Translations under genes and position numbers: made by a program
Notes under the pieces: model-generated
The model's input: the letters and a program-made list of their open reading frames with translations, nothing else
What the model was told of the DNA's origin: nothing
Databases searched by the model: none
Shown here: in pieces, positions 3,215 to 25,801 of the stretch
Layout of the letters: each line of letters starts with the position of its first letter
Position numbering within the stretch: the first letter of the stretch is position 1
Origin: a virus
Taxonomy: Duplodnaviria > Caudoviricetes
Direction: 5' to 3' (one strand)
Length of the DNA: 42,467 nt
Virus record (IMG/VR): IMGVR_UViG_3300024251_000017
Span: 1-42,467 of that record

Positions 3215-4185
3215 GTTTTTCCTTTCGTCCAGCGAAGCGCGAGAATGTATCGCTATTGATCGGACTGGCCGGCGCGAGCGGCAGCGGCAAGACTTACACG
3301 GCGATGCGTTTGGCATCTGGAATTTCTGGCGACAAGCCGTTCGCGGTGATAGATACCGAGGCCGGCCGCGCAAAGCACTATGCCGACCAGTTCCGATTCG
3401 ATCACGGGGATATGTCGCCGCCGTTCTCGCCGAGCGCCTACGCGGATGCGATCAAGGCTGCGGATGACGCGCACTATCCTGTTATCGTTGTCGATAGTTT
3501 CAGCCATGAGCATGCCGGCGTCGGCGGAATACTTGACATGCAGGAGGCGGAATTCGCTCGTATGGGCAGCAAGGAAGCGGTCAAGATGGCGTCATGGATC
3601 AAGCCGAAAGGAGAACATAGGAAGATGGTTGCTCGCCTGCTGCAAATTCGCGCGCATCTAATCCTGTGTTTCCGCGCGGAAGAAAAGATCGAGATGATCC
3701 GCGTTGATGGCAAGATGGAAGTGCGCAAAAAACAATCGGCGATCGGGCTGGATGGCTGGCAACCGATATGCGAGAAAAATCTGCCCTATGAACTGACGGC
3801 AAGTTTCCTGCTGATGGCCGCGCATCCTGGCGTCCCGTTGCCAATCAAGCTACAGGAGCAGCACCGCGCGCTGTTCCCGTTGGACAAGCCCATCACCGAA
3901 GAATCCGGTCGCAAGCTCGCGCAGTGGGCAAGCGGCGCAACGAGTTCGGCAACGCAGGCTGGACAGACTAAGCACGGGGCTTCGCCTTCGCAAGAGGGCC
4001 GATCTGTTGGGTCTGCGTCTGCCGAACCCACGCTGCTCGAAGAAATCGAGGGCTGGGTCAAGCGCAAGAAGTTCGACATGGCGCGGGACTTGGCTCGGTC
4101 GATTGGCGACGACGCCGAGCGCCTTGGCGTGCTTGAGCGTATCCAGAAAGCCGAGAAATACGTCAACAAGCGGGCGGCAGCATGA
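3211..4185 (+). CDS. AAA_24/Sak4-like recombination ATPase
   Basis: Walker A GASGSGKT, VIDTE, Walker B VIVVDS; ATGA-coupled to the exonuclease. Confidence 0.85.
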   Translation: MSFSFRPAKRENVSLLIGLAGASGSGKTYTAMRLASGISGDKPFAVIDTEAGRAKHYADQFRFDHGDMSPPFSPSAYADAIKAADDAHYPVIVVDSFSHEHAGVGGILDMQEAEFARMGSKEAVKMASWIKPKGEHRKMVARLLQIRAHLILCFRAEEKIEMIRVDGKMEVRKKQSAIGLDGWQPICEKNLPYELTASFLLMAAHPGVPLPIKLQEQHRALFPLDKPITEESGRKLAQWASGATSSATQAGQTKHGASPSQEGRSVGSASAEPTLLEEIEGWVKRKKFDMARDLARSIGDDAERLGVLERIQKAEKYVNKRAAA

Positions 4186-4260
4186 AGCCCAAAGATCAAT
4201 GAGCGGCGCCGCAGGACGTGGCGCAGAGCTCGTCTATACTTCCACGGGACAAACCGGAGG

Positions 4261-4689
4261 TTAGTATGCGCGCACTTTTATGGCGGCTTCTTGAGGAAAG
4301 AATTCAAGCTGCGATAACCGAGCGCATCGCGAGGTTCCACGATGCGCTCGTCGAGCGCGATCAGATCGAGCCGTTGCCACCTGAACATTGCACGGCGGCC
4401 GTGTGCTCTGGATCAGGTCGAGTTCTTCAGCTTTTCGCTGCAACTCGCCGCCCCGATTGACGCGAGCATGAACATGCGTCGCCCCGAGCTTGCGAGCGTC
4501 CGGCCATGTCTCGTGATCGGCGAACCGATCTTTGAAGCTTCCGGTTTGTCCAACATACAGCGATTTCCATCTGTCGCCAACAATGCTGGCGAAGATGTAA
4601 TTCCCTGGGACATCGTGCCAAGTCGTCGGAATCTGATACACCGTGTATGTGTACTTTATGCCACTCTTACCAGTCCAGATTGCGTTCAT
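4261..4689 (-). CDS. Stand-alone GIY-YIG nuclease
   Basis: GNY...LYVGQT...R...H...E..LI...PPCN; AAAGGA RBS before ATG 4689; opposite strand to its neighbours. Confidence 0.8.
   Translation of the reverse strand: MNAIWTGKSGIKYTYTVYQIPTTWHDVPGNYIFASIVGDRWKSLYVGQTGSFKDRFADHETWPDARKLGATHVHARVNRGGELQRKAEELDLIQSTRPPCNVQVATARSDRARRAHRGTSRCARLSQLEFFPQEAAIKVRAY
4266..4460 (+). CDS. Hypothetical protein, antisense-overlapping the GIY-YIG gene
   Basis: Strong GGAGGT RBS before ATG 4266. Confidence 0.45.
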   Translation: MRALLWRLLEERIQAAITERIARFHDALVERDQIEPLPPEHCTAAVCSGSGRVLQLFAATRRPD

Positions 4690-4779
4690 CTTGTTCCTTT
4701 GTGCGGTACCGCATTGACAGTCTCGTCGGGAGGGGTTGACAATGCGTAAACTACAACGCGAGTTGTAGGTTGCGAAAAG

Positions 4780-4847
4780 TGGAGCGCCGGGGAATCGAAC
4801 CCCGAGGCCGTGATCTAGGAGGTCTGGACTGTAGCCATACGCGCCCC
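4780..4847 (-). ncRNA. Minimal tRNA-Ala/tmRNA-like element (68 nt)
   Basis: Acceptor stem GGGGCGC/GCGCTCC with G3.U70 and discriminator A; T arm CGGGG-TTCGATT-CCCCG; D and anticodon arms not canonical; no encoded CCA. Confidence 0.6.
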
Positions 4848-4963
4848 ACGGTAGTAGAACCACCAAGCGCCCGATCGGTTGCCCCGCCAAGGATTGACCG
4901 ATTCGGGCGTTTCCAATTTGGCCTTCCGCGCCGGTGGGTGTTGTGGGCTAACGGAGGGAAGTA

Positions 4964-5182
4964 ATGGTTCATGAGGCACGCTGCGGTATGGTCGGACAAT
5001 TCGGCAATGCAGGTGTGCGCTGCAAGATGATCAAAGAGAAAAAGGAGGGCGAATTGGTCTGCTACTTCAACATTCGACAATTGTGGTGCGCTGTCATTTG
5101 GGACGGAGATAACTCTCCTGTCTGCATCAAAGCGAGCGCAATACTCGTTAAACCAGACGGAAGATGGGTGAAACTGCCGTGA
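4964..5182 (+). CDS. Hypothetical protein
   Basis: GGAGGG RBS; overlaps the start of the next gene. Confidence 0.5.
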   Translation: MVHEARCGMVGQFGNAGVRCKMIKEKKEGELVCYFNIRQLWCAVIWDGDNSPVCIKASAILVKPDGRWVKLP

Positions 5183-5535
5183 TGCCCCTATCCGCTGAGC
5201 AACTGTCTAAGTTGGACGCGCTGTATCGGAAGTCGACGCCGGGGCCGTGGTTGCACGACCCTGATACGCGCATCGATGGCGCAAGCCAAGTGCTACAGGC
5301 GCGCGATACGAACCTCGCCGTGTGCTTCATGGCTACCGGGCAGGACAAGGATGAACACGAAGCTACCGCCGAACTCATCGCCTTCCAGCGCAACCACGCC
5401 GAGGCTGTGCTGGCGCTGGTGCGGGCGTGCGAACGCATGATAGCCAATCCGACATGGGGGGCATTGTGCGACGAAGATATAGATGTCGAGAGAGCACTAA
5501 CCGCGCTCGACGCAGCGCAGAAGGAGCGGGGATGA
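5182..5535 (+). CDS. Ead/Ea22-like phage early protein
   Basis: STPGPW and ATAELIA..RN...L motifs typical of this family. Confidence 0.65.
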   Translation: MPLSAEQLSKLDALYRKSTPGPWLHDPDTRIDGASQVLQARDTNLAVCFMATGQDKDEHEATAELIAFQRNHAEAVLALVRACERMIANPTWGALCDEDIDVERALTALDAAQKERG

Positions 5536-6263
5536 GCGCGCCGCGCCATGTGGTGGCACTATCAGGCGGCAAGGACTCGACCTGCATGGCTTTGGCTTTG
5601 CGCGAACGCGAGCCGCGCGACTACGAATATATCGGCAACTGGACTGGCAACGAATTGCCGGAATTGTTTGATCACCTGAACACATTGGAGCATCTGCTCG
5701 GCAGGCCGATCAAGAGAGTTGCATCGGAGATGAGCCTATTCCAGTTGATTGACCATCACAAAATGATCCCGAACTTTCGGGCGCGGTTCTGCACGATCGA
5801 ACTCAAGATTGAGCCGACGATTGCTTATTTCAAAACGCTTCCGCCAGGCTCTGTTTTGTACGTTGGCATCCGCGCCGACGAGGAATCTCGCGTCGGCATC
5901 TATGGTGACGACATTCAAAGCGATTTTCCATTCCGGCGCTGGGGCTGGGGCATTGATGCCGTGCTCGGCTATCTGGATCGCGCAGCGATAACCATACCAG
6001 CCCGCACGGATTGCGCCCAATGTTTCTATCAGCGTCTGGGTGAATGGTGGAACCTCTGGAAGTTTCATAACGCGGAGTTCATGGCAGGCGCGGCCGTCGA
6101 GCAGAAGTACGGACATACGTTTCGTTCCCCGCAGAGAGATTCTTGGCCGGCGTCTCTAGCAGAACTTGCGAAAGAGTTTGAGGCCGGCCGCGTGCCCCGT
6201 GGTGCCGACATACAGATCAATCTATTTGGAGGCGCGGAAAAATGCCGCGTGTGTTCGCTATGA
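5532..6263 (+). CDS. PAPS-reductase-like (PP-loop, DndC/CysH superfamily) protein
   Basis: PP-loop SGGKDS, RFCT..LK..P, GIRADE, C-terminal CxxC motifs. Confidence 0.85.
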   Translation: MSAPRHVVALSGGKDSTCMALALREREPRDYEYIGNWTGNELPELFDHLNTLEHLLGRPIKRVASEMSLFQLIDHHKMIPNFRARFCTIELKIEPTIAYFKTLPPGSVLYVGIRADEESRVGIYGDDIQSDFPFRRWGWGIDAVLGYLDRAAITIPARTDCAQCFYQRLGEWWNLWKFHNAEFMAGAAVEQKYGHTFRSPQRDSWPASLAELAKEFEAGRVPRGADIQINLFGGAEKCRVCSL

Positions 6264-16203: not shown

Positions 16204-16833
16204 TTATCCGGCCGTCACTCGTAACGGGCCTCCGCTGAAGGATTCGATGTTATCTTCGCCGTTCACGTCTGCGAGTATTTCATCTCGCTTACTCTTCCAA
16301 AGAGGCATCCTTGGATCGCGCTTGATAAACGGCTCGGCCTCTACCAACGATGAGTACAGATAGAGGTCAGGCCAGTTCTGGAAGACCGCGTTAGTGTTAC
16401 CCGTGGACGTATCGTTCACCGCAGCCAAACGCATGTAGTACTCGGTCTGCACGGTATATGCCGAGTCCGGGTAAGGACCGAAGATGAAGTAGCCGGCCTC
16501 GCGCGCGATGAATTTCGGCTTGCTCCCGTTCACTCGATCCGGGTAGTTGTCGTAAATCCAGTTGTTCGTCTTGCGGTCAAGAGATTGTGTCGGAGCGGTG
16601 GTGATCACTGCGTTTTCCAGAGCAACGTAACTCGTCGGCAGCGCAAGGATTCCGCTTGTGCTGATTGTGCCGCTCACTACCGTGATCATGTCGCGCGTGC
16701 GGCATTTCCTGAAAATCCACTTCTCTCCGATGGTGATGATGTCCGGTACGCGGCTCGCCATATCGGAGGTGGAAACGTCCAGCCAATCTGTGACCGCTGT
16801 TTGCAGGTCTGCGTATGTCGCGAGTCCGCTCAT
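16204..16833 (-). CDS. Head-tail adaptor protein
   Basis: TYADLQTAVTDWL, LP.SY, GP.PD.AY and PDLYLY.SL.EA motifs. Confidence 0.85.
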   Translation of the reverse strand: MSGLATYADLQTAVTDWLDVSTSDMASRVPDIITIGEKWIFRKCRTRDMITVVSGTISTSGILALPTSYVALENAVITTAPTQSLDRKTNNWIYDNYPDRVNGSKPKFIAREAGYFIFGPYPDSAYTVQTEYYMRLAAVNDTSTGNTNAVFQNWPDLYLYSSLVEAEPFIKRDPRMPLWKSKRDEILADVNGEDNIESFSGGPLRVTAG

Positions 16834-17840
16834 GCCGTTTTCCTCAGTGACCAGACTTCCGCAGCCTCATGCTTGCCGATCAGATCACAAATTCGCTCGA
16901 TCTCTTCGTCGCCAATATGCGGCCCGGTCGGAAGGCACAACCCGCGCTCCCAGATAGACTCAGAAACCTTGAATTTCTGCGACGTGCCAAATGCTCTCGT
17001 CAGATGCAGGGGCATGAAGACGGGTCGAGTCTCAATACCGGACATTTGCAGGTAGGCCGCAAGGGAAACCGGGTTGCGACTCTCGGCAACGAATAGCCAC
17101 TGCCCGCGCCCATCAATCCGCTCGGCGTAGTGCGCCGCATTCTTTGCCCTGGTCGCGACGAGTTCGTCAATCCTTTCAAGCTGCGCGCAGCCAATCGCTG
17201 CTTGCAGGTTGGTCATGCGGTAGTTAAGACCGGCGACAAGGGCATCGTATTTCTCATCAAAGCCGCCGTCGCGAAAATAAGTCGCAGCGCCTAACTTCCC
17301 GCAGAGCATTCCGCCTTCTCCGGTCGTCATTGGCTTGTTGCCGTAGAACGAATATGCCGTCAGCCAGCCTGCGGGGTTTACCAGCCCGAGAGCTTCACAG
17401 GCGTCCTCGATGATGGGAATTCCGCAGAACGATTCGCCTGGCACATGGCAGTTCTGTCCGTACAGGTGGACTGCAATAATTGCCTTGGTGCGCCGGGTGA
17501 TGAGTTTCGCAGCCTGATCCCAATTGATGCCGAAATCCTCGGTGACATCGCAAAGTCTGACGTTCGCGCCGAGCTGCTTGACCACGGAAGCGCACGCGGT
17601 AAAGGTAAGCGCCGGTACGATGACTTCATCGCCCGGCCCGATACCGAAAGTCATTAGGGCAATATGCAATGCACCCGTGCCACTGGAGCAGGCAATCGAG
17701 GAACGCCCTATCCATTGAGAGAACTCGTGTTCGAATCTATGCTCCCACACACCGCAGTGCGTGAGATAGCCCGAGTCCATTGCCTCTAGGAGATACTTGC
17801 GTTCGTTGCCGTCAAGCGACGGCTTCGCCAACGGTATCAT
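16830..17840 (-). CDS. DegT/DnrJ/EryC1/StrS PLP-dependent sugar aminotransferase (perosamine-synthase-like)
   Basis: SSGTGALH, GDEVIVP..TF.A, EDACEALG, PLP-lysine motif SFYGNK..TTGEGG, GLNYRMTNLQAAIG. Confidence 0.95.
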   Translation of the reverse strand: MIPLAKPSLDGNERKYLLEAMDSGYLTHCGVWEHRFEHEFSQWIGRSSIACSSGTGALHIALMTFGIGPGDEVIVPALTFTACASVVKQLGANVRLCDVTEDFGINWDQAAKLITRRTKAIIAVHLYGQNCHVPGESFCGIPIIEDACEALGLVNPAGWLTAYSFYGNKPMTTGEGGMLCGKLGAATYFRDGGFDEKYDALVAGLNYRMTNLQAAIGCAQLERIDELVATRAKNAAHYAERIDGRGQWLFVAESRNPVSLAAYLQMSGIETRPVFMPLHLTRAFGTSQKFKVSESIWERGLCLPTGPHIGDEEIERICDLIGKHEAAEVWSLRKTA

Positions 17841-18690
17841 GCTGCTCCCTAAGTAAGTGCGCCCACATCTCGCCGCTTATCATTTCCTCTGGTGTCCATT
17901 GCGCGTAAGCGAGGTCTGCCAACCACTGCTCTCGAGCTGGCGTTTTCACGTCGAAAAGGTCATCCCACGATCGGTTGGCAACAGGCAGTGCCATCGAACC
18001 TTCATCGAACGCAAATACGGGCACGCCTGCAATCGCCGCCTCCACTGCCAGGTTGGAGTTGAACGTCACCGCGACATCGCCATAGCGCCCACGGTCAGAC
18101 ATTGCTTCAAACGACTGATAGCAGCCTCTCGGCTCCGGCATTCTGGCAAGTGGATGCGGACGGAACCATACATTCGCATTCACCCTCAGATGGATTTCCT
18201 CGACCGCGCGATCAAGCCATTCGGCCAGGTTGATATGATCCACAGACGCATCCCACGGAACTTGTCCAGCCAGTACGACATCTCCGATTCGATTTGGCCT
18301 GACCCATGGCCTGAGAATAGCCGCTCGCCCTATGCGGTCGCACAATTTAGAAATGCGATCATCAGGCATTCCCTTATTGCGAAAATCCGCCCTGCCGTTA
18401 AGACCGTTAAGTCCAGCAGCGTAGTGGTGCCACGGCACATCACCGCGATTGAGGTATCCAGTTTCCAGCACCAGAGTATCGAAGCCGCGAGTCTTCTGGG
18501 CGCGCATTACTGCTCCGCGCGCATAACTCACCGGCACACGAGACTTGTAGACGCCGAATATCACGGCAAGCTTGGTCGGAGTGTATTTAGAAAGCGGCAG
18601 CAGTTCCTTTTCGCCAGGACATCCTGCAAACGCAGCCGCCAATACGAAATCATGCACGGGATTGCCGGAAAGGTAGAAGTTTGTTGTCAT
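17812..18690 (-). CDS. KpsC/KpsS-like (Capsule_synth) GT-B glycosyltransferase
   Basis: E.GY, QVPWDAS, FRPHP and VTFNSN.AVEA.IAGVP motifs. Confidence 0.7.
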   Translation of the reverse strand: MTTNFYLSGNPVHDFVLAAAFAGCPGEKELLPLSKYTPTKLAVIFGVYKSRVPVSYARGAVMRAQKTRGFDTLVLETGYLNRGDVPWHHYAAGLNGLNGRADFRNKGMPDDRISKLCDRIGRAAILRPWVRPNRIGDVVLAGQVPWDASVDHINLAEWLDRAVEEIHLRVNANVWFRPHPLARMPEPRGCYQSFEAMSDRGRYGDVAVTFNSNLAVEAAIAGVPVFAFDEGSMALPVANRSWDDLFDVKTPAREQWLADLAYAQWTPEEMISGEMWAHLLREQHDTVGEAVA

Positions 18691-19190
18691 AGATCGTTCC
18701 AGCACACCAGCACGCCGTCAGACTTCGCTTCCCTTGGCAATACTTCTCCTTCGGACTGTACGAAAATAAAGACATGCTTTTTGCCAAGCGACATCATCTT
18801 GTCGAAGGCTTGCTTTTGCGTGCCGCGCCAGTTGACCTGCGAACTCCATACCAGATCGTAGTATCCTTCGTGGTTCAGCACGTCCTCGCACCTGAAGTCT
18901 GCTTCAGGCGCCAAAGTCTTTGCCGCTTCGATCGCAGGCTTGTAAATGTCGATCCCGACGTACCCGCGCGGCTTCTTAAAGTGATAGAGGAATCCACCGT
19001 AACATCCCACGTCGAGGACTGATTCAAACTTGGAGAAGTCTGTTTCTCGCATGTGCTCCACGACGCGCAGCGTCAGCGGGTCGTCCTTTGGATTCGCAAT
19101 CTGTACGCGCGTGCGCTGAAGCATCAAATCCATACCTTCATCGCCATGCGGAAGCAGTTTGCACCGAGAAAGGATCGCAGGGGAAATCAC
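18687..19190 (-). CDS. Class I SAM-dependent methyltransferase
   Basis: VLDVGCYGG, YVGIDI, YDLV motifs. Confidence 0.85.
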   Translation of the reverse strand: MISPAILSRCKLLPHGDEGMDLMLQRTRVQIANPKDDPLTLRVVEHMRETDFSKFESVLDVGCYGGFLYHFKKPRGYVGIDIYKPAIEAAKTLAPEADFRCEDVLNHEGYYDLVWSSQVNWRGTQKQAFDKMMSLGKKHVFIFVQSEGEVLPREAKSDGVLVCWNDL

Positions 19191-19876
19191 GCGGCCTTCT
19201 CCGATTGGCTTGCGATGTAGGCTTCCAAGTCTTCCGGCGTCCCGAGAGGATGCATAGCAGAAGCCGGAATCTCGTAACTGGATATCGCGCCGTCAAAGTA
19301 ATTGAAGCTGGGTGCGACATAGAACTCGCCGTTCGTGCGGTCTTTCGCGGCGATCATAGCGTCTGCCGACTTCACGAAATCGCTCCCGCGCCGCCAGAAG
19401 TAAATCCCTGCCGTCGCCAGATCTGAGATTTCACGCTTCTCTGCGACTTCGACTACCAGCCCCTTGTTGGTGAGCACATACGACCATTTCGGCCCGCTGG
19501 CCCGGAAGGTGACGATGCCAGCATCAGCAGACTCGCCGATGAAATCTGCAATGGACATATCCACCAGTTGATCGCCATTGGCGATGATCATAGGATCGTC
19601 GTTGTCGATTATGTCGCGAGCGAGAAGAACCGTGCATGCCGCGCCTTCAGTCGCGCCATTGGCGGCAATGACCGTACACCCCTCCGCGCAAGCAAGGGCG
19701 TCGTTCGCGTGTTCCGAGCGCGCGATCAGATAAAGCCTACTAACGCCCTTGGGAACAATGTTCTCGATCACGCGCGCGACCATCGGCCGCCCCAGCACGT
19801 CAATGAACGGCTTGGGTTTCCGGTACGACGAGAACCGAGTGCCGCGCCCCGCGATCGGTATGACGAAGTTCAGCAA
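19187..19876 (-). CDS. Sugar/polyol-phosphate nucleotidyltransferase (NTP_transferase fold)
   Basis: VIPIAGRGTRF..KPKP, TEGAACTVL, NGDQ, EK..IS, NGEFYVAP, LGTPEDL; TTG start with a GGGAG RBS. Confidence 0.9.
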   Translation of the reverse strand: MLNFVIPIAGRGTRFSSYRKPKPFIDVLGRPMVARVIENIVPKGVSRLYLIARSEHANDALACAEGCTVIAANGATEGAACTVLLARDIIDNDDPMIIANGDQLVDMSIADFIGESADAGIVTFRASGPKWSYVLTNKGLVVEVAEKREISDLATAGIYFWRRGSDFVKSADAMIAAKDRTNGEFYVAPSFNYFDGAISSYEIPASAMHPLGTPEDLEAYIASQSEKAA

Positions 19877-20447
19877 GTTTTCTCCCTATGGCTTCAAACG
19901 AAACATCGTTGTATCCATCCACCTTCAGCACATGCGCACCGCTCGCTATAGCGGCACGCTCTCCAATATTTGAATCCTCTACAATCAGCGTCTCGCACGG
20001 AAGCGCCCTGAATTGCTTCATTGCCTTGAGATACATTTCCGGGCTTGGCTTGGGCTGGGCATCCTCGTTGCTGAAGACCGCATCCACGAATGCCGTAAGC
20101 CCAAGTTGGCTCAATGCCATGTCTACGGTTTCACGCACGGCGTTGGAGCACACGCCTATCGAATAGGATCTGTGAAGGAGCAGCAGCATTAGCACCTTGC
20201 TGAAATCCGGCCGCATCTCTGCGAGCAGCCTCATGGTTTCGGCCTGCTTGGTCACGGCGACATCCTCGGATGCGCCCAGCATCCTGAGCTTGATCCTGGT
20301 CGGCAATCCGTTGAACCTGCGCTCATGATCCGCGCGTGAAATCGGTGCGTAGTCGTGCGTCAGGAGCGCTCGGTTAAGCGCCTCGAAATGCAGCTCCGTC
20401 GCATCTAACAACACGCCGTCCAGATCAAACAGAATGCAGGTAATCAT
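19800..20447 (-). CDS. HAD-family phosphatase
   Basis: FDLDGVL, CSNA, KP.PE.Y and EDS..G..AA motifs. Confidence 0.9.
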   Translation of the reverse strand: MITCILFDLDGVLLDATELHFEALNRALLTHDYAPISRADHERRFNGLPTRIKLRMLGASEDVAVTKQAETMRLLAEMRPDFSKVLMLLLLHRSYSIGVCSNAVRETVDMALSQLGLTAFVDAVFSNEDAQPKPSPEMYLKAMKQFRALPCETLIVEDSNIGERAAIASGAHVLKVDGYNDVSFEAIGRKLAELRHTDRGARHSVLVVPETQAVH

Positions 20448-20964
20448 CCAGTTCTTCCGGGTAATCGGTGCAGATTCCAGCAACCCCGTCTTTTTTCCAG
20501 ACGCTCCACCAGTATTTCCTGCCGAGCAGGATATGAAGCTCCGGCGACACGCAATAGTGCCCAGGAGCGCTGCGGCGCATCGGCCTGTCCTGCCACACAG
20601 CACATCCGTTCATCGCCTCGCGCGGCATTCTCAGCTCATGCGGTATCGCCGCCGGATCAACACCGATCAGTTCCATGTCGAAAATCAGGCATTGCCCGCG
20701 CTTCTTCGCGAAGTCTATGAGTTCTTCTGTGTCCGAAGCTTCCTTGATATTGAGAAGGAGCAACCCTATGGTATCTTGCAGATCCCACAGACTTTCGCCG
20801 TCTCCTGGCTCATGGGTAAGTTTTCCCCCGCGCACGTCTATCTCGCAGCCCCATCCCCTGCCAAGGCACTCTCGGATGGCATGCACACGATTCTCCCGAT
20901 CGCTGTCGCGGCCGTTGAGATATCCCCTGTGCGATACGACTAATGTATTGATGGTCCCTCCCAC
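20425..20964 (-). CDS. GDPD/PLC-like phosphodiesterase-fold protein
   Basis: SHRG..N...EN, EIDV, VSPELH, ICTDYP. Confidence 0.75.
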   Translation of the reverse strand: MGGTINTLVVSHRGYLNGRDSDRENRVHAIRECLGRGWGCEIDVRGGKLTHEPGDGESLWDLQDTIGLLLLNIKEASDTEELIDFAKKRGQCLIFDMELIGVDPAAIPHELRMPREAMNGCAVWQDRPMRRSAPGHYCVSPELHILLGRKYWWSVWKKDGVAGICTDYPEELDDYLHSV

Positions 20965-21836
20965 TTAAGCTCATAGCGCGCCGAGACGTATGGACTCGGC
21001 TGCTGTGGCAGGAACTCGCAATCGACGTTGCCGAAAACACCCAAGCACGGATTTCGGAACGCGCCATCCAGGGAAGCGTTAATCACGGAAGTCTTAGTGC
21101 GCCCGGCGTACATGGCGAGCACCATCCCAAACCCGCTATGGGCGACGTAGACGCGCTCGGCGTGCTGAGCTGCGTGAATTTTCTGCCAGATCGTCCAGTT
21201 CTTCCCGTTAATACCACCGTCGATCTGATCGGAGATGAGAATAATGGGCTTGCCTTGTTCTGACAACCCATCGATAAATCCCTGCGCCCAGGCATCGAAC
21301 TGCGTCCCGCTCACGGCGTTCCTAGGCTTCTTCTTGCCGATGTCTTCACGCCTTAGCTGTACGACGATATAAGGCTCACCAGGCAGTTCCGGCGGTGCCA
21401 GTACGTCTGCGGATGCGATGAAGCCATTAACGGCGAGCTGCGCGCAAGCCCTGTCACTGTGCATGCGGATGATCTTCGGGCGCGTCGTGTAGGTCGCTGG
21501 AGGCAGGTATCCGCCGAACTGCGGATCGGGTAGCCACTGCGGCACTTCGATCTTGGCGCCTTTGAACGGGTGCATGAAATGCGTAGCGAGCACGGCATCG
21601 AAATCATCCGTCACCGGGGGCGCGTCCAACCATTCGCTCACGAATGCTGGTTTCGCAATGTAATCGCGATGCCTGAATCCGGCCTCGCAATGTCCAGTAC
21701 CAGCCGAGCCACCGTCGTAGACGGAAAACTCCATGTCGGGATACTTCGCCTTCAGTACCTGCGCACAGAAAAGCGCCGGGAAGCCGTCGCCCCATCCTTC
21801 CTGTCCGTTGACGGTAGTGGAGGCGTAGACTTTCAT
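20940..21836 (-). CDS. Putative GT-B glycosyltransferase, fucosyltransferase-like
   Basis: GWGD, VQLRRED, LISD and HSGFG resemble the GxGN/HxRRxD/xTD/SxF motifs of GT11/GT23-type enzymes. Confidence 0.5.
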   Translation of the reverse strand: MKVYASTTVNGQEGWGDGFPALFCAQVLKAKYPDMEFSVYDGGSAGTGHCEAGFRHRDYIAKPAFVSEWLDAPPVTDDFDAVLATHFMHPFKGAKIEVPQWLPDPQFGGYLPPATYTTRPKIIRMHSDRACAQLAVNGFIASADVLAPPELPGEPYIVVQLRREDIGKKKPRNAVSGTQFDAWAQGFIDGLSEQGKPIILISDQIDGGINGKNWTIWQKIHAAQHAERVYVAHSGFGMVLAMYAGRTKTSVINASLDGAFRNPCLGVFGNVDCEFLPQQPSPYVSARYELKWEGPSIH

Positions 21837-22438
21837 GTGCAGGCGTATACCAGATAGGCACCAGCGTCGCCCGGAATCACTTCCGGGTTCTTCTTCGATT
21901 GCTGGCAATGACGTTCAATCGTGTTCCAGCCCGTAGAGCGAAGCAATCCCTCGAATTCATCGGGCGTGTAGTGCCGCTGATGCGGATATTGATCACCGGC
22001 GAAATCTTCTGCCCTGAATGGCAGCACGAGTTCGTTCGGGACCGAGCAGATGAGACGCGGAGAACACTGACGGAACGATTTGAGCGCTGGCGTCGGATCA
22101 GGCAGATGCTCGATTGTCTCGAAGGAAACCACCCAATCAAAGCGGAGGGCGAGATTCAATTCGCACACGTCACCGCAAACGTACTGCGGCCCGGTGTAGT
22201 ATTCGCTCGCGGTCTTGATCGTATCCTTATCGATGTCTATCCCTAGCATTTGGCACCCTAGGCTTTGCAACAGGCACGATCCGTAACCAACACCGCATGC
22301 AGCATCGAGAACTACCCCGCGACAATACAACGCCGCGAACATATAACGGGCGAGATGATTGCGGCTCACCATCTGCACGCTGGTCGCTTGCTGACGCTCT
22401 CTTGAACGAACTCCGGCTACGGCTCCGGTTATGCTCAT
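21833..22438 (-). CDS. Class I SAM-dependent methyltransferase (glycan-locus type)
   Basis: H.ARY.FA, VLDAACGVGYGS, FD.VVSFETIEHL, S.PN, H.RHY. Confidence 0.9.
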   Translation of the reverse strand: MSITGAVAGVRSRERQQATSVQMVSRNHLARYMFAALYCRGVVLDAACGVGYGSCLLQSLGCQMLGIDIDKDTIKTASEYYTGPQYVCGDVCELNLALRFDWVVSFETIEHLPDPTPALKSFRQCSPRLICSVPNELVLPFRAEDFAGDQYPHQRHYTPDEFEGLLRSTGWNTIERHCQQSKKNPEVIPGDAGAYLVYACT

Positions 22439-23238
22439 TGCGCCACCATGATTCTGCGCGGTTCAACGATGTCGCCGGGACGCAGTTCTAAGTCGTCCTT
22501 GCGATTACCTTTGAAGTGCGTCATATATCGACCCAGAATCGTGTTGACTTGCGGGTGCATCGTTCCACGTGGAACATCTGATGCGATGTCAACGAACTCA
22601 GGGCCGTTGCCGAACACCTGCCGTATCGCATCGAAGCCGCCGCAGTCGTGCCAGTACTGCTGCGAGAAAATCGCCCCGCTCAGAAACACGTTGAGGTAGT
22701 TCTTCGCAAACCTGCTGGCATGCGGATGGTTGCCGTTAAAGCCTATGAATCCGGTTTCAGTGAAGTACCAGCCGTCACGCCCGAGGTAGCAGCAAAGCGC
22801 ATCATCCGGCAGCAACTGATCAAGCAACCATTCCGGCACCGGCGTATGCGTCACGGTATCGGCATCGATCCAGAAAACCTTGCCGCCGTACTTTCGCATC
22901 GCGTGCATTTCTATGAACGCCTTGCGTGCGTGGCGCGCGTCGTAGTTGATGTCGTACTGAGTTCCGATGACTCCGCGCATGATGGGAAAGCGCAGATTGT
23001 CCATGAACTCGGTAAGGTGCGGGACTTCCTCGATCGGATGCCATGAAATACCGTGCGTGAATTCAAAGCCCTCGCCCTCGTAGAACACGGTGAGGCGCAC
23101 ACCCGCCGGCCAGAAGCGCAGGAACGATTCGATAAAGCGCTGTCCATAGCGCTTGTATCCCTCCTCGTTGAAGGAGGTCACTACGTTTGGCAGCAGCTTG
23201 TCAGGCCGCTTGACGCTCGTTCCGGCTTCCAGAATCAC
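22435..23238 (-). CDS. GT-A glycosyltransferase
   Basis: VVTSF, WIDAD (DxD), ETGF, WHD, THFKG; likely GTG start at 23238. Confidence 0.75.
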   Translation of the reverse strand: MILEAGTSVKRPDKLLPNVVTSFNEEGYKRYGQRFIESFLRFWPAGVRLTVFYEGEGFEFTHGISWHPIEEVPHLTEFMDNLRFPIMRGVIGTQYDINYDARHARKAFIEMHAMRKYGGKVFWIDADTVTHTPVPEWLLDQLLPDDALCCYLGRDGWYFTETGFIGFNGNHPHASRFAKNYLNVFLSGAIFSQQYWHDCGGFDAIRQVFGNGPEFVDIASDVPRGTMHPQVNTILGRYMTHFKGNRKDDLELRPGDIVEPRRIMVAQ

Positions 23239-24586
23239 TGAACTTTTCCTCCAGTCGTTGACGTACTTCGGCGATCGGCCAGTCAGACCCTTGCTGCCTG
23301 AAAAGCTCGACCGATTTGGCCCAATGGAAATGCCTCCCCGATCTTCCGTACATCCAGATCGGACGGGAAGGAACGAGGCACCAGCATTCCTTCCCCAAGG
23401 CCCCAGCAGCATGCACCGCCGTCTGAGTAACCGTGATCACCATATCCAGCTCGGCAATCAAGGCGAGCGTGATGTCGTAGTCGTAGCACTGAACTGCCCA
23501 CGGCCAATGCATGATATTCAGGTTGTGCTTGGCATTGAACGCATCCAAATCCTTAGGCGGCTTGTACTCAAGGCTCACCCAGTGGGCATCGAACTCTAGG
23601 ATAGGAAGCAGGGTTTCCAGAGCGATCGAGCGCACCGCTTTTCCGGTAGGCGCGATTCCTCCGTTCCAGGTAATGCCGATGCGCGGCTTTTTCGGCAAAG
23701 AGTCAAAGCGCGCCTTGAACATAAGGCGTAGCTCTGGATCAGGGATCAGATATGCGCCACTCGGAAAGTCAGAGTTTGTGCGCCGGTAGAACTGCGGGAG
23801 TTGTCCGAAAGAGACGTGCGCATCGAAGTTCCGCCCGTTGACCCAAGTTATTTCGCTGTCGTAGCGCGTGCCGCGGACTTCCTGATCTGGAAATGTCCTG
23901 CGAAACACTGTCTCCAGCCGCTTATCGCACTCGATCACGACAGAAGCGCTATCGCGGATAAGATCGGCGATGCAGGAACCAAAGTTGATCTCGTCTCCAA
24001 TGCCCTGCTCTCCGAATACGACGAGGTTCTTCCCCTTGCTGCCATCCCAGCGCGGCTCACCGGAGTAGCAGCGCTCTTTGCGATCCTTGTTGTTGCCGAA
24101 GTTGCAGTTATAGCCTCTCCAGCCCTCTTCCCAGCGCTCCATGCCCAGATACGCCATGCCGCGGTTGACCATCGAGTCCATAAGCCCTGGCTTTTCTGCA
24201 ATGGCGCGACTGCAATAGCCGATTGCATCTTCAAAATTCGCCCTGTTGAGACTCACCAGTCCAACCCCGTCCAGAGAATTGACGAAGCGTTGATCTAAAG
24301 CGAGCGCCCTGCGGAACGCGCAATCCGCCTCATCGAAGCGCTGCATTTCGTAGCAGGTCTTGCCCAGGTTGTGCCACGCCGCGGCCATTTGCGGCACCAG
24401 TTCAACAGCGCGAGTCATCACCTGGTAGGCCAATCCCGGTTTTTCCAGTTTCAGGAATACGTAGCCCATGATATAGAGCGCGCGCGGGTCGTTCGGCTCG
24501 CTATCGAGGTACGGGCCGAGGACTTGCGTCGCGCCCTCGTAGTCACCGCTTTCCGCCTTGGCCGCGATGTCTGCGAAGTTGATCAT
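23201..24586 (-). CDS. TPR-repeat protein fused to a GT9-like glycosyltransferase
   Basis: About five TPRs (AWHNLG, NRG.AYL), then WDG...EQGIGD, RIG.TW.GG, D.VITV.....H.AGALG. Confidence 0.85.
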   Translation of the reverse strand: MINFADIAAKAESGDYEGATQVLGPYLDSEPNDPRALYIMGYVFLKLEKPGLAYQVMTRAVELVPQMAAAWHNLGKTCYEMQRFDEADCAFRRALALDQRFVNSLDGVGLVSLNRANFEDAIGYCSRAIAEKPGLMDSMVNRGMAYLGMERWEEGWRGYNCNFGNNKDRKERCYSGEPRWDGSKGKNLVVFGEQGIGDEINFGSCIADLIRDSASVVIECDKRLETVFRRTFPDQEVRGTRYDSEITWVNGRNFDAHVSFGQLPQFYRRTNSDFPSGAYLIPDPELRLMFKARFDSLPKKPRIGITWNGGIAPTGKAVRSIALETLLPILEFDAHWVSLEYKPPKDLDAFNAKHNLNIMHWPWAVQCYDYDITLALIAELDMVITVTQTAVHAAGALGKECWCLVPSRPIWMYGRSGRHFHWAKSVELFRQQGSDWPIAEVRQRLEEKFSDSGSRNERQAA

Positions 24587-24765
24587 TTAAGCGTGCTTTC
24601 GATATATGCTCGCAACGCGCTGAACTCGGCAGCGATTTCCTCCATGGTCCCTTCCACCTTCACCCAGTAACGGGTCTGGGGCTCGCGGTGCGTCAGGCCA
24701 AATTCGCAGTGCGGCTGGAATAACTTACGGCGCACGTCGGCCATAGTCGTCATCTGGTCATTCAC
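24583..24765 (-). CDS. Small hypothetical protein
   Basis: 60 aa; overlaps both neighbours by 4 nt. Confidence 0.55.
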   Translation of the reverse strand: MNDQMTTMADVRRKLFQPHCEFGLTHREPQTRYWVKVEGTMEEIAAEFSALRAYIESTLK

Positions 24766-25412
24766 GCCGTCTCCTTCATCCGCTTCAGCACAGGCGCCGC
24801 ATGCACCGAATTGCCCATGATCTCAGCCCAACTGACGCTAGAGGTCATAGAACGCACTTCGGCCTGGTATTCCTGGCCGAATTCGCAGTCTTTAGTCTCC
24901 GGGAAGATCGGAATGCCCTGGGTGAAATGGACGAGCTTCGCATCCTTATCCGGGTCGTCGTAGCCGACCAGGTGATTCCATTCGGAAGGAAGCGCTCCCA
25001 CTTCACCCCACTCGAACGAGAACGGATCGCCGTTTTCGACATACTCCGGAGTGAGTTTGTGGCACGCCTCGCAGTTAAACAGCATGAGGCTCGGCCATTC
25101 GTAACGCAGTTTGTTCTGCACGACTTGAACCGCGTATTTCGCGTCGTACATGTCAATGAGTTCGGCGATGTCTGAGCGCGCCATCATGTCGGCGTCCAGA
25201 AAAAGCGCCCGCCCGTAGTAGCCGCAAAGCCACGGCACCATGAACCTTGAATAGGTGAACTCCGTAAGCCCAGTCCTCTTGATCGGCAGCGAAGAGAGAA
25301 TGAGAGGAGTAATCGTGAGCGGCCTACTGCTGCGGCCAACAATCGAGCAGGCGAGCGCAAAAAACGCAATCGGTTGCCTTGGGTCCACGCCGATAAAGAT
25401 GCGGTCGATCAT
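24762..25412 (-). CDS. GT-A glycosyltransferase (GT8/CDI-like)
   Basis: IFIG.DPRQ, TEFTYSRF.VP.L, ALFLDADM, W.S.MLFN, LP.EWNHLVG, VHFT.G.P. Confidence 0.85.
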   Translation of the reverse strand: MIDRIFIGVDPRQPIAFFALACSIVGRSSRPLTITPLILSSLPIKRTGLTEFTYSRFMVPWLCGYYGRALFLDADMMARSDIAELIDMYDAKYAVQVVQNKLRYEWPSLMLFNCEACHKLTPEYVENGDPFSFEWGEVGALPSEWNHLVGYDDPDKDAKLVHFTQGIPIFPETKDCEFGQEYQAEVRSMTSSVSWAEIMGNSVHAAPVLKRMKETA

Positions 25413-25801
25413 CGCTGTGTTTCCTGCCATCCGCAGATTGTGATTTTCTGGATTACGGAGGCTGCCGGCGTCCCGAACTCGGCGACTACGGGGTTGCCTG
25501 TATTACACGGCATGTCCCAATAAAAACTCTGCGCGTTGGAACCACCGGCTGCCACGATGAAATCTAGGGATGCAAGCACCGTCCCGGCAATGGAAGCATC
25601 CCGGATGCTGCACGTCGAAGTCACCGCTGCCGCCGCCTGATTGCGAAGCGAGATATTGAGATTCGTCAGGTTCATAATCGCAGTGGGGACTTCTGGCGTC
25701 GGGGACGTTGCCACGCAAGTTGTATTCGCCGCTGGAGCGGCGGTTGCCGTCCACCGCTTCCCGAGCGTGTTCATCAACAGGCTGTCTGCATGTTTTGCCA
25801 T
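25409..25801 (-). CDS. Putative head decoration/virion protein
   Basis: Ala/Thr-rich beta-sandwich-like protein, 130 aa, downstream of the capsid gene. Confidence 0.6.
   Translation of the reverse strand: MAKHADSLLMNTLGKRWTATAAPAANTTCVATSPTPEVPTAIMNLTNLNISLRNQAAAAVTSTCSIRDASIAGTVLASLDFIVAAGGSNAQSFYWDMPCNTGNPVVAEFGTPAASVIQKITICGWQETQR

What the first reader, a model, noticed from the sequence alone, without database searches (positions are those of the whole stretch)
4780..4847. 68-nt tRNA-Ala/tmRNA mimic with G3.U70 but no anticodon arm or tag reading frame
Seen on the minus strand: GGGGCGC...CGGGG-TTCGATT-CCCCG-GCGCTCC-A. This gives a 7-bp acceptor stem with G3.U70, discriminator A and a perfect T arm, joined by only 36 nt that fold poorly as D and anticodon arms. 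Known: G3.U70 with A73 is the AlaRS identity element shared by tRNA-Ala and the tmRNA tRNA-like domain, and acceptor plus T arm suffices for RNase P and CCA addition. Inference: an alanylatable mini-RNA acting as a decoy (SmpB, AlaRS, anti-tRNA defences) or as a processing signal.
Basis: partly seen in the sequence, partly recalled or inferred. Interest (0 to 1): 0.7.

Follow-up and report, generated by a model that had tools for sequence, protein, structure and literature searches.

The report
Alanine-type tRNA toxin with antisense guard
This soil phage carries a compact, oddly folded tRNA-shaped gene with alanine-loading marks but an arginine-type anticodon; it belongs to a family missing from the RNA-family database, in which about half the copies sit beside a small gene complementary to their anticodon arm, so it is likely a mistranslating RNA toxin kept in check by antisense RNA.

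Summary
The element is real but is not a tmRNA mimic lacking an anticodon arm. It belongs to a family of 67-71-nt RNAs (71 distinct copies; Patescibacteria, IS1595 transposons, a few phages): G3:U70 acceptor, no nucleotides 8-9, 3-bp D stem, 9/7/10-nt anticodon arm with U33, no variable loop. All 8 arm pairs covary. A model built without this copy scores it 66 bits, against 28-49 for tRNAs and tmRNA-domain minis. Anticodons vary, mostly non-Ala; this one is CCU (Arg AGG). In 34 of 71 copies a neighbouring promoter-antisense-terminator unit complements the anticodon arm, as in 10 of 11 new copies. This copy has no such partner. Like 20 of 37 partnerless copies it has an opposite-strand terminator just upstream, which suggests cis-antisense control. 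Best reading (0.5): an alanine-inserting missense tRNA acting as RNA toxin, with an antisense antitoxin. Expression, charging and toxicity are untested. Eight literature searches found no description; this scan saw the module before on other DNA (e1-3622085).

The parts
4780..4847 (-). 68-nt tRNA-shaped RNA gene, member of the new family (acceptor 4847-4841 with 4787-4781, discriminator A 4780, no encoded CCA)
   Evidence: model built without it scores it 66.1 bits
4831..4840 (-). D arm directly abutting the acceptor stem: 3-bp stem and 4-nt loop with the GG
   Evidence: 3 of 3 pairs show two-sided changes in 36 homologues; the search pattern partly constrained this arm
4805..4830 (-). Extended anticodon arm (5 bp, 1x2 loop, 3 bp, 7-nt loop 4821-4815; anticodon CCU at 4819-4817, U33, A37); joins the T stem with no variable loop
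   Evidence: 8 of 8 pairs covary, 84.7% of cells paired, not constrained by the search patterns; this copy keeps 6 of 8
4788..4804 (-). T arm, 5 of 5 pairs, canonical loop
4868..4918 (+). Opposite-strand intrinsic-terminator-like hairpin (-23.6 kcal/mol) with T-rich tail, 21 nt upstream of the RNA gene; would end an antisense transcript just past the gene
   Evidence: same feature in 20 of 37 partnerless copies against 6 of 37 downstream and 2 of 34 partnered
4714..4743 (+). Convergent sigma70-like site (10 of 12, spacer 18); candidate promoter of a cis-antisense RNA of about 170 nt (about 4750-4918); also one arm of an inverted repeat
   Evidence: weak: 1 found against 0.8 expected in 1.6 kb
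4261..4689 (-). ORF just downstream on the same strand, 142 aa, first 104 aa GIY-YIG-like; probably part of the same minus-strand insert, not a conserved partner
   Evidence: 16 homologues at 47-61% identity; Atlas lead to GIY-YIG clusters; no Pfam hit; 0 of 3 loci with its relatives carry the RNA

Best explanation
The gene encodes a compact tRNA-shaped RNA with alanine identity marks and a CCU anticodon, which is likely processed and alanylated and would insert alanine at AGG arginine codons, making it a predicted RNA toxin whose likely antitoxin is an antisense RNA that pairs with the anticodon arm. Shown: the fold and its covariation, the non-Ala anticodons, and, in 34 of 71 family copies, a cognate promoter-antisense-terminator unit. 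Inferred: RNase P and CCA processing, charging by AlaRS, ribosome use, toxicity. For this copy specifically it is also inferred that the antisense RNA is cis-encoded, made on the + strand from about 4750 to the terminator at 4868-4918. The 3-bp D stem plus the 9-layer arm would keep the usual anticodon-to-elbow distance (12-layer rule, recalled). The module would act as an addiction or defence cassette carried by transposons and phages.
For: Family: 18 of 18 metagenome pattern hits pair both stems and have a 35-38-nt middle although 24-48 was allowed. Covariation score 0.689 against 0.181 shuffled and at most 0.166 slid. Loop of the 36 unambiguous arms: U33 35, Y32 31, A38 31, non-Ala anticodon 33 (Ser 14, Arg 8, stop 3, Cys 3, Thr 2, others 3). 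The Arg AGA/AGG, Leu and stop anticodons of mobile copies parallel those of 9/3 allo-tRNAs, and two Ser-identity allo-tRNAs with Leu anticodons mistranslated in and killed E. coli (PMC5389517). G3:U70 is the main AlaRS determinant (PMC9976931). E. coli can use a D-arm-less tRNA (PMC11551756). Partner units: -10 box in 32 of 34 (reverse orientation 3), terminator in 26 of 34 (reverse 0), mismatches G-U 19 against A-C 3 (p = 0.0009), own partner ranks first in 29 of 34, three different layouts. Out of sample: 10 of 11 new copies have a partner, 9 at z <= -3. TA-like spread: 5 of 101 class-mates carry it, at 2-4 copies each. IS1595 transposase beside 15 of 37 partnerless and 0 of 34 partnered copies. 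The closest copy rides in an IS1595 with a SocA/Panacea antitoxin gene. Anti-anticodon oligonucleotides switch tRNAs off in lysates (PMC6158751 abstract).
Against: Nothing shows expression, charging or toxicity. This copy has no trans partner anywhere in the 42 kb (best 9.7 against 9.8-14.8 in shuffles). It has no minus-strand sigma70 site in 4000-5600, no encoded CCA, 2 of 8 arm pairs broken, and its lone-sequence fold differs from the family fold. Its + promoter is at chance frequency. Only 6 of 37 partnerless copies have a convergent site scoring at least 9 (background 2.8%), and 17 of 37 lack the antisense terminator. Position 37 is C in 20 of 36 arms, unlike decoding tRNAs. 3 of 36 have Ala anticodons yet still have partners, so missense alone cannot explain them. 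G1-G4, GG, the T loop and U70-C71-C72-A73 were fixed by my patterns. Without that constraint, 5 of 6 paired family-type hits were G3:U70 (3 from the seed genome) and one partnered copy had C3-G70/U73. Several allo-tRNAs near TA systems were not active in translation. The phage itself uses AGG (41 of 6967 codons). Counts are not corrected for relatedness.
Confidence: 0.5

Rival explanations
1. Non-decoding regulatory RNA: the tRNA shape serves only for RNase P processing and stability (as in P1 C4 or P4 CI RNA, recalled), and the U-turn loop is just a pairing site, for the partner RNA or for mRNA. This copy's loop region contains the anti-Shine-Dalgarno heptamer ACCUCCU and could bind ribosome-binding sites.
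For: C37 in 20 of 36 and Ala anticodons in 3 of 36. Loop diversity could reflect insulation between paralogues. U-turns are also typical of antisense loops (recalled).
Against: The arm is held at 9/7/10 nt (36 of 71 exactly 26 nt, all 25-29), which a mere pairing site does not need. G3:U70 is kept in 11 of 11 model-found copies (the model favours it). No specific target in this phage. No Rfam C4 match.
Confidence: 0.2
2. Anti-defence decoy or spare substrate for host anticodon nucleases acting on tRNA-Arg(CCU), or a sink for AlaRS or EF-Tu, with antisense RNA only tuning its level.
For: Canonical-looking loop C32 U33 CCU A37 in this copy. Family copies often lie near nucleases, TA and restriction-modification genes.
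Against: Only 4 distinct family sequences came from IMG/VR (L265, L482, L487, L489); most copies are chromosomal or in IS elements. A harmless decoy needs no strongly promoted cognate antisense gene.
Confidence: 0.12
3. The family is functional but this copy is a decaying orphan picked up with a GIY-YIG-like gene and no longer active.
For: No partner, no promoter seen, 2 of 8 arm pairs broken. None in 64 loci of related phages (many of these loci are short).
Against: Acceptor, D and T stems are perfect and the leave-out score (66 bits) is above most new copies (53-67). The upstream antisense terminator is intact.
Confidence: 0.1
4. tmRNA tRNA-like-domain mimic that titrates SmpB, like the DS6A RNA.
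For: G3:U70 and A73, GG at positions 12-13, no tag frame. Best tRNA-clan Rfam match is tmRNA at 14.3 bits. Such minis exist and inhibit tmRNA (PMC4131195, PMC11915505).
Against: It lacks the TTCGAC D-loop motif and the GAC connector. Positions 8-17 form a covarying hairpin instead of an open D loop. It has a conserved U33 loop and cognate antisense partners. True minis score 32-49 bits against 53-74 for family copies, except one linker variant at 48.
Confidence: 0.06
5. attP remnant or chance resemblance.
For: The 3' 27 nt match a phage tRNA-Ala end (L002).
Against: Both acceptor strands are present, the family covaries throughout, and no integrase was found in the ORFs scanned.
Confidence: 0.02

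Closest known systems
Allo-tRNAs and irregular polycistronic tRNAs (Mukai et al. 2017, PMC5389517)
   Same: Non-canonical bacterial tRNAs with diverse non-cognate anticodons (including AGA/AGG Arg, Leu, UAA), some with G3:U70, found near toxin-antitoxin systems and transposons; some mistranslate and kill E. coli.
   Different: Allo-tRNAs have 8/4 or 9/3 acceptor branches, long D stems and long variable arms. This family is 7/5 with a 3-bp D stem, a 9-layer anticodon arm and no variable loop. No antisense partner was described. Six family motifs gave 0 hits in their supplement.
tmRNA-domain-only RNA of mycobacteriophage DS6A and other tag-less tmRNAs (PMC4131195, PMC11915505)
   Same: About 65-75 nt, G3:U70, A73, T arm, no tag frame, found in phages.
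   Different: Those keep the open D loop with TTCGAC and the GAC connector and have no anticodon loop. This has a D hairpin, a U33 loop and antisense partners.
RNA-toxin/RNA-antitoxin modules (CreTA, PMC8501985 search listing; SdsR/RyeA, recalled) and type I antisense logic
   Same: Toxin and antitoxin both RNA; strongly promoted small cognate antitoxin; patchy, multicopy, mobile.
   Different: CreT sequesters a rare tRNA and CreA acts through Cascade on DNA. Here the predicted toxin is itself a chargeable tRNA and the antitoxin pairs directly with its anticodon arm.
P1/P7 C4 and P4 CI antisense RNAs (recalled; Rfam C4 not matched)
   Same: tRNA-like, RNase P-processed phage RNAs with a pairing loop.
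   Different: They target mRNA leaders and lack Ala identity. Here the complementary sequence is a stand-alone small RNA gene with its own promoter and terminator.
mascRNA/menRNA (RF01684)
   Same: D hairpin abuts the acceptor stem; best Rfam score (27 bits).
   Different: Vertebrate lncRNA product with a shortened anticodon arm; below the gathering score; resemblance only.

Membership tests
Canonical tRNA-Ala (RF00005) | 7-bp acceptor with G3:U70 and A73, canonical T arm | tested here: met
Canonical tRNA-Ala (RF00005) | U8, connector 8-9, 4-bp D stem, 5-bp anticodon stem, 4-5-nt variable loop | tested here: not met
   ARAGORN in the window and 2 of 71 family copies
Canonical tRNA-Ala (RF00005) | NGC anticodon | tested here: not met
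   CCU here; 33 of 36 non-Ala
tmRNA or tmRNA-domain-only RNA (RF00023, DS6A type) | Open D loop with GG-N-TTCGAC and GAC connector (SmpB site, recalled) | tested here: not met
   contrast
tmRNA or tmRNA-domain-only RNA (RF00023, DS6A type) | Tag reading frame and pseudoknots | tested here: not met
tmRNA or tmRNA-domain-only RNA (RF00023, DS6A type) | SmpB binding | not testable with these tools
   needs a binding assay
Allo-tRNA | 8/4 or 9/3 acceptor branch and long variable arm | tested here: not met
   7/5, no variable arm
Allo-tRNA | Anticodon unrelated to acceptor identity; TA or transposon neighbourhood | tested here: met
RNA-RNA toxin-antitoxin module | Cognate antisense small RNA gene with own promoter and terminator (family level) | tested here: met
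   34 of 71 and 10 of 11
RNA-RNA toxin-antitoxin module | Antisense RNA for this copy | tested here: inconclusive
   no trans partner; cis terminator present, promoter at chance level
RNA-RNA toxin-antitoxin module | Toxicity, and rescue by the antitoxin | not testable with these tools
   needs expression tests
New family defined here (models R1, R2) | Score against a model built without this copy and its closest relative | tested here: met
   66.1 bits against 28-49 for tRNA and tmRNA-domain controls
att-site remnant | Only the 3' end of a host gene, next to an integrase | tested here: not met

The most novel reading that the evidence does not exclude
A widespread, unannotated class of all-RNA addiction modules: a re-folded four-way-junction tRNA that borrows AlaRS's anticodon-blind recognition to poison the proteome with alanine at a codon of its choice, neutralised by a private 55-75-nt anti-anticodon RNA (or, in mobile copies such as this phage's, by cis-antisense transcription). 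New anticodon and antitoxin pairs arise freely, giving orthogonal modules.
Probability: 0.42. Interest if true: 0.92.

Novelty: categorically new. Interest (0 to 1): 0.8.

Why it matters
It would add a natural bacterial tRNA architecture that standard finders miss (ARAGORN called 2 of 71 copies; Rfam has no family). It would also add a toxin-antitoxin logic in which the toxin is a mistranslating tRNA and the antitoxin a natural anti-anticodon RNA. The system is small, programmable and directly testable in E. coli. It offers natural switchable missense or stop suppressors (UCA, UUA, CUA anticodons occur) and a handle on hidden RNA genes in Patescibacteria, IS1595 cargo and phages. Even if the toxin reading fails, the covarying RNA pair is an undescribed regulatory module.

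Tried and rejected
1) Start-codon-targeting antisense idea (note): dropped, because the complementary segment starts at a predicted transcription start, ends at a terminator within about 50-85 nt and often has no start codon. 2) C4/c4-a1b1 identity of the upstream hairpin: no Rfam match. 3) Trans partner or mRNA target in this phage: none above shuffles. 4) Conservation in related phages: 0 of 64 loci found through the AAA gene carry the RNA; many are short contigs. 5) Fixed link to the GIY-YIG-like gene: 0 of 3 loci; the PDB sequence search gave only chance hits. 6) Expression: no RNA holder listed; the one DNA run, possibly the source, matches without variants; no evidence either way. 7) A strict IMG/VR pattern gave 0 hits; BLAST of cultured phages gave only T-arm-sized matches, to tRNA-Ala genes, sites beside integrases and one Elezi element. 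8) ARAGORN at lowered thresholds is noise (201 calls). 9) Rows dropped: of 113 distinct pattern hits, 40 failed the filter (acceptor at least 6/7, T at least 4/5, D at least 2/3, middle 35-39), and 2 more (L396, L417) were set aside by eye as tRNA-Ala-like; L381 is this window's own record. 10) Automatic anticodon registers are unreliable for arms other than 26 nt, so only the 36 arms of 26 nt were counted.

Full report
SETTING. The window is a whole 42,467-nt virus record. It is podovirus-like: portal, major head, scaffolding, terminase and head-closure families on the minus strand, exonuclease VIII and an AAA ATPase on the plus strand. No integrase was found among the 58 and 67 ORFs scanned. 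The element lies on the minus strand inside the plus-strand early region, 91 nt upstream of a minus-strand ORF whose first 104 aa resemble GIY-YIG nucleases (16 homologues; Atlas lead, 13-33% of members of two clusters carry the Pfam family).

OBSERVATION. Acceptor, G3:U70, A73 and T arm are as described, and no CCA is encoded. The fold beats 200 of 200 shuffles. ARAGORN finds nothing. Rfam gives only sub-threshold tmRNA (14.3 bits) and mascRNA (27.2 bits) matches.

TWO LOOK-ALIKE CLASSES. A loose IMG/VR scan (120 stretches shown of about 3600 estimated) returned tRNA-Ala genes and many tmRNA-domain-only RNAs. A strict pattern for the latter gave 60 loci, 45 distinct, all pairing 7/7 and 5/5. 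This class is known from phage DS6A (PMC4131195, passages; PMC11915505, parts 2-3 of 5; Mao 2009 not read). Our element lacks its D-loop and connector motifs.

THE FAMILY. A pattern using our D segment found 18 metagenome loci, all with paired stems and a 35-38-nt middle (one is the window itself, one duplicates L265). A looser pattern gave 95 GTDB and 11 IMG/VR loci. Of 113 distinct hits, 73 passed a filter that ignored the anticodon arm, and 71 were kept. In 60 of the 73 the outer five arm positions pair at least 4 of 5 (shuffled mean 5.8, maximum 14). The 36 copies of 68 nt align without gaps. RNAalifold returns the structure I had named: 17 of 23 pairs with two-sided changes, including 3 of 3 D pairs and 8 of 8 arm pairs, covariation 0.689 against 0.181 shuffled and at most 0.166 slid. 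Relatedness is not corrected, and bases fixed by my patterns carry no information. A model built without this copy and its closest relative scores it 66.1 bits, against 32-49 for tmRNA-domain minis and 28-44 for tRNAs. Record titles of the hosts include many Patescibacteria, Acidobacteria, Alpha-, Beta- and Gammaproteobacteria and Actinobacteria. Prevalence is low and multicopy: 5 of 101 class-mates of a Peregrinibacteria genome (seed included), 2-4 copies each. In 401 phylum genomes a pattern without acceptor bases hit 18 genomes (20 places): six tRNA-Met genes, six family-type copies (five G3:U70, one C3-G70/U73) and eight unpaired or other matches.

THE LOOP. In the 36 unambiguous arms U33 occurs 35 times, Y32 31 and A38 31; position 37 is C 20, A 13, G 3. 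Anticodons: Ser 14, Arg 8, stop 3, Cys 3, Ala 3, Thr 2, Gln, Leu, Gly 1 each. This copy reads C32 U33 CCU A37 G38, decoding AGG. Three D pairs plus nine arm layers equal the twelve layers of a normal D/anticodon domain (rule recalled, not tested).

THE PARTNER. In 33 of 71 copies at z <= -3, plus L422 added by eye (z -2.1), a segment within about 170 nt is complementary over 10-19 nt to the loop and the 5' arm strand. It sits behind a -10 box in 32 of 34 (3 in reverse orientation) and before a terminator in 26 of 34 (0 in reverse). Its mismatches are G-U 19 times and A-C 3 times. Each arm's own partner ranks first in 29 of 34. Layouts are 14 convergent, 10 tandem and 10 divergent. Among 11 copies found afterwards by the model, 10 show a partner, 9 at z <= -3. 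I reached this before the look-up that returned note e1-3622085, which reports the same module in an Anaerolineales prophage; that is an unchecked AI note and not independent support.

THIS COPY. It has no trans partner in the whole genome. It falls in the partnerless group, where 15 of 37 copies lie beside an IS1595 transposase (0 of 34 partnered). In that group 20 of 37 have an opposite-strand terminator within 100 nt upstream. Controls: 6 of 37 downstream, 6 of 34 far upstream, 4-10 of 37 shuffled, 6 of 45 tRNA-Ala, 5 of 45 tmRNA-domain minis, 2 of 34 partnered copies; p = 0.001 for upstream against downstream, uncorrected for kinship. Here that terminator is 4868-4918 (+), and a convergent sigma70-like site lies at 4714-4743, though at chance frequency. 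A cis-antisense RNA of about 170 nt is therefore plausible but unproven; the terminator could also simply insulate. The closest relative (L471/L527, a Burkholderiales MAG, same CCU anticodon) is IS1595 cargo next to a SocA/Panacea antitoxin gene.

MECHANISM. AlaRS reads G3:U70 (PMC9976931, passages). Natural allo-tRNAs with mismatched anticodons mistranslate and can kill E. coli, while others near TA systems are inactive (PMC5389517, parts 2-3 of 5 and supplement part 24 of 26). Anticodon-swapped tRNAs are often lethal in yeast (PMC6125640, abstract). Antisense oligonucleotides inactivate tRNAs (PMC6158751, abstract). E. coli tolerates a D-arm-less tRNA (PMC11551756, passages). Together with the strongly promoted, copy-specific partner and the patchy, mobile distribution, this favours a mistranslating RNA toxin with an antisense antitoxin (0.5). 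Against it: C37 in most Patescibacteria copies, three Ala-anticodon copies that still have partners, one non-Ala acceptor, and for this copy no visible promoter, no CCA, two broken arm pairs and no expression data.

NOVELTY. No Rfam family reaches its gathering score at the element here or in 15 homologous loci (best 45 bits to tmRNA, cut-off 47). Eight full-text searches listed no paper describing this fold or a natural anti-anticodon partner; most listed papers were seen only as title and abstract start. PMC7609411 was seen as outline and abstract only, and PMC11662646 as passages, not relevant. The Mukai supplement holds none of six family motifs. The library lacks most subscription journals, and preprint supplements were not seen, so prior description is not excluded. 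The parts have precedents (allo-tRNA, RNA-RNA TA modules, antisense antitoxins); the architecture and the pairing do not, as far as searched.

Noticed in passing
L191-L250 and L010, L026, L027, L030, L032, L040, L042, L055, L067, L071, L082 (IMG/VR): tmRNA-domain-only RNAs are common in uncultured phages: 60 loci (45 distinct) from one strict pattern limited to 78 nt, all fully paired, against 9 'standard, no CDS' entries in the 2025 tmRNA database. Candidate SmpB-titrating inhibitors of trans-translation.
   Followed up: partly
L251-L366 (IMG/VR): Large family of phage tRNA-Ala(UGC) genes lacking U8, with a 4-bp/4-nt D arm abutting the acceptor and a 7-bp anticodon stem; many are missed by ARAGORN. 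Possibly an intermediate between canonical tRNA and the new family.
   Followed up: no
L188:1450-1526 (Arthrobacter phage Elezi); L001:1454-1523; L074; L030: Unannotated G3:U70 tRNA-like elements of yet other middle folds, two of them just downstream of HNH-type genes.
   Followed up: no
L512-L517 (Patescibacteria): tRNA-Met(CAU) genes with a very short D arm carrying the same GYRNGGYYRC segment as the new family; a possible origin of that arm.
   Followed up: no
L440:3001-3271 and L417 (Chitinophagaceae MAG): Three tandem copies at 102-nt spacing, and a fourth on another contig, of a 67-nt G3:U70 element with a GCAU-capped arm.
   Followed up: no
L404, L425, L444, L445, L451, L477: 72-73-nt G3:U70 elements with a GGCCGG D segment and odd 8-nt anticodon loops, one called tRNA-Stop by ARAGORN; a separate irregular class.
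   Followed up: no
window 16830-25430 (-): Sugar-modification cluster inside the structural region: DegT aminotransferase, two methyltransferases, NTP transferase, HAD hydrolase, TPR/glycosyltransferase-like and GT8 genes; probably glycosylates the virion.
   Followed up: no
window 5427-6263 (+): PAPS-reductase-like gene (phrog_424), as in phage DNA-modification clusters, followed by unannotated 336- and 181-aa ORFs.
   Followed up: no
window about 4707-4768: Imperfect inverted repeat holding two TTGACA hexamers on the + strand (4714, 4736) and a perfect 7-bp hairpin at 4751-4768, between the RNA gene and the GIY-YIG-like ORF. The closest relative L527 also has TTGACA/TGTCAA repeats just downstream.
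   Followed up: partly
L388, L409, L412, L435, L436, L465, L466 and others: In many Patescibacteria copies the 5' leader is complementary to the 3' trailer, extending the acceptor stem in the precursor.
   Followed up: no
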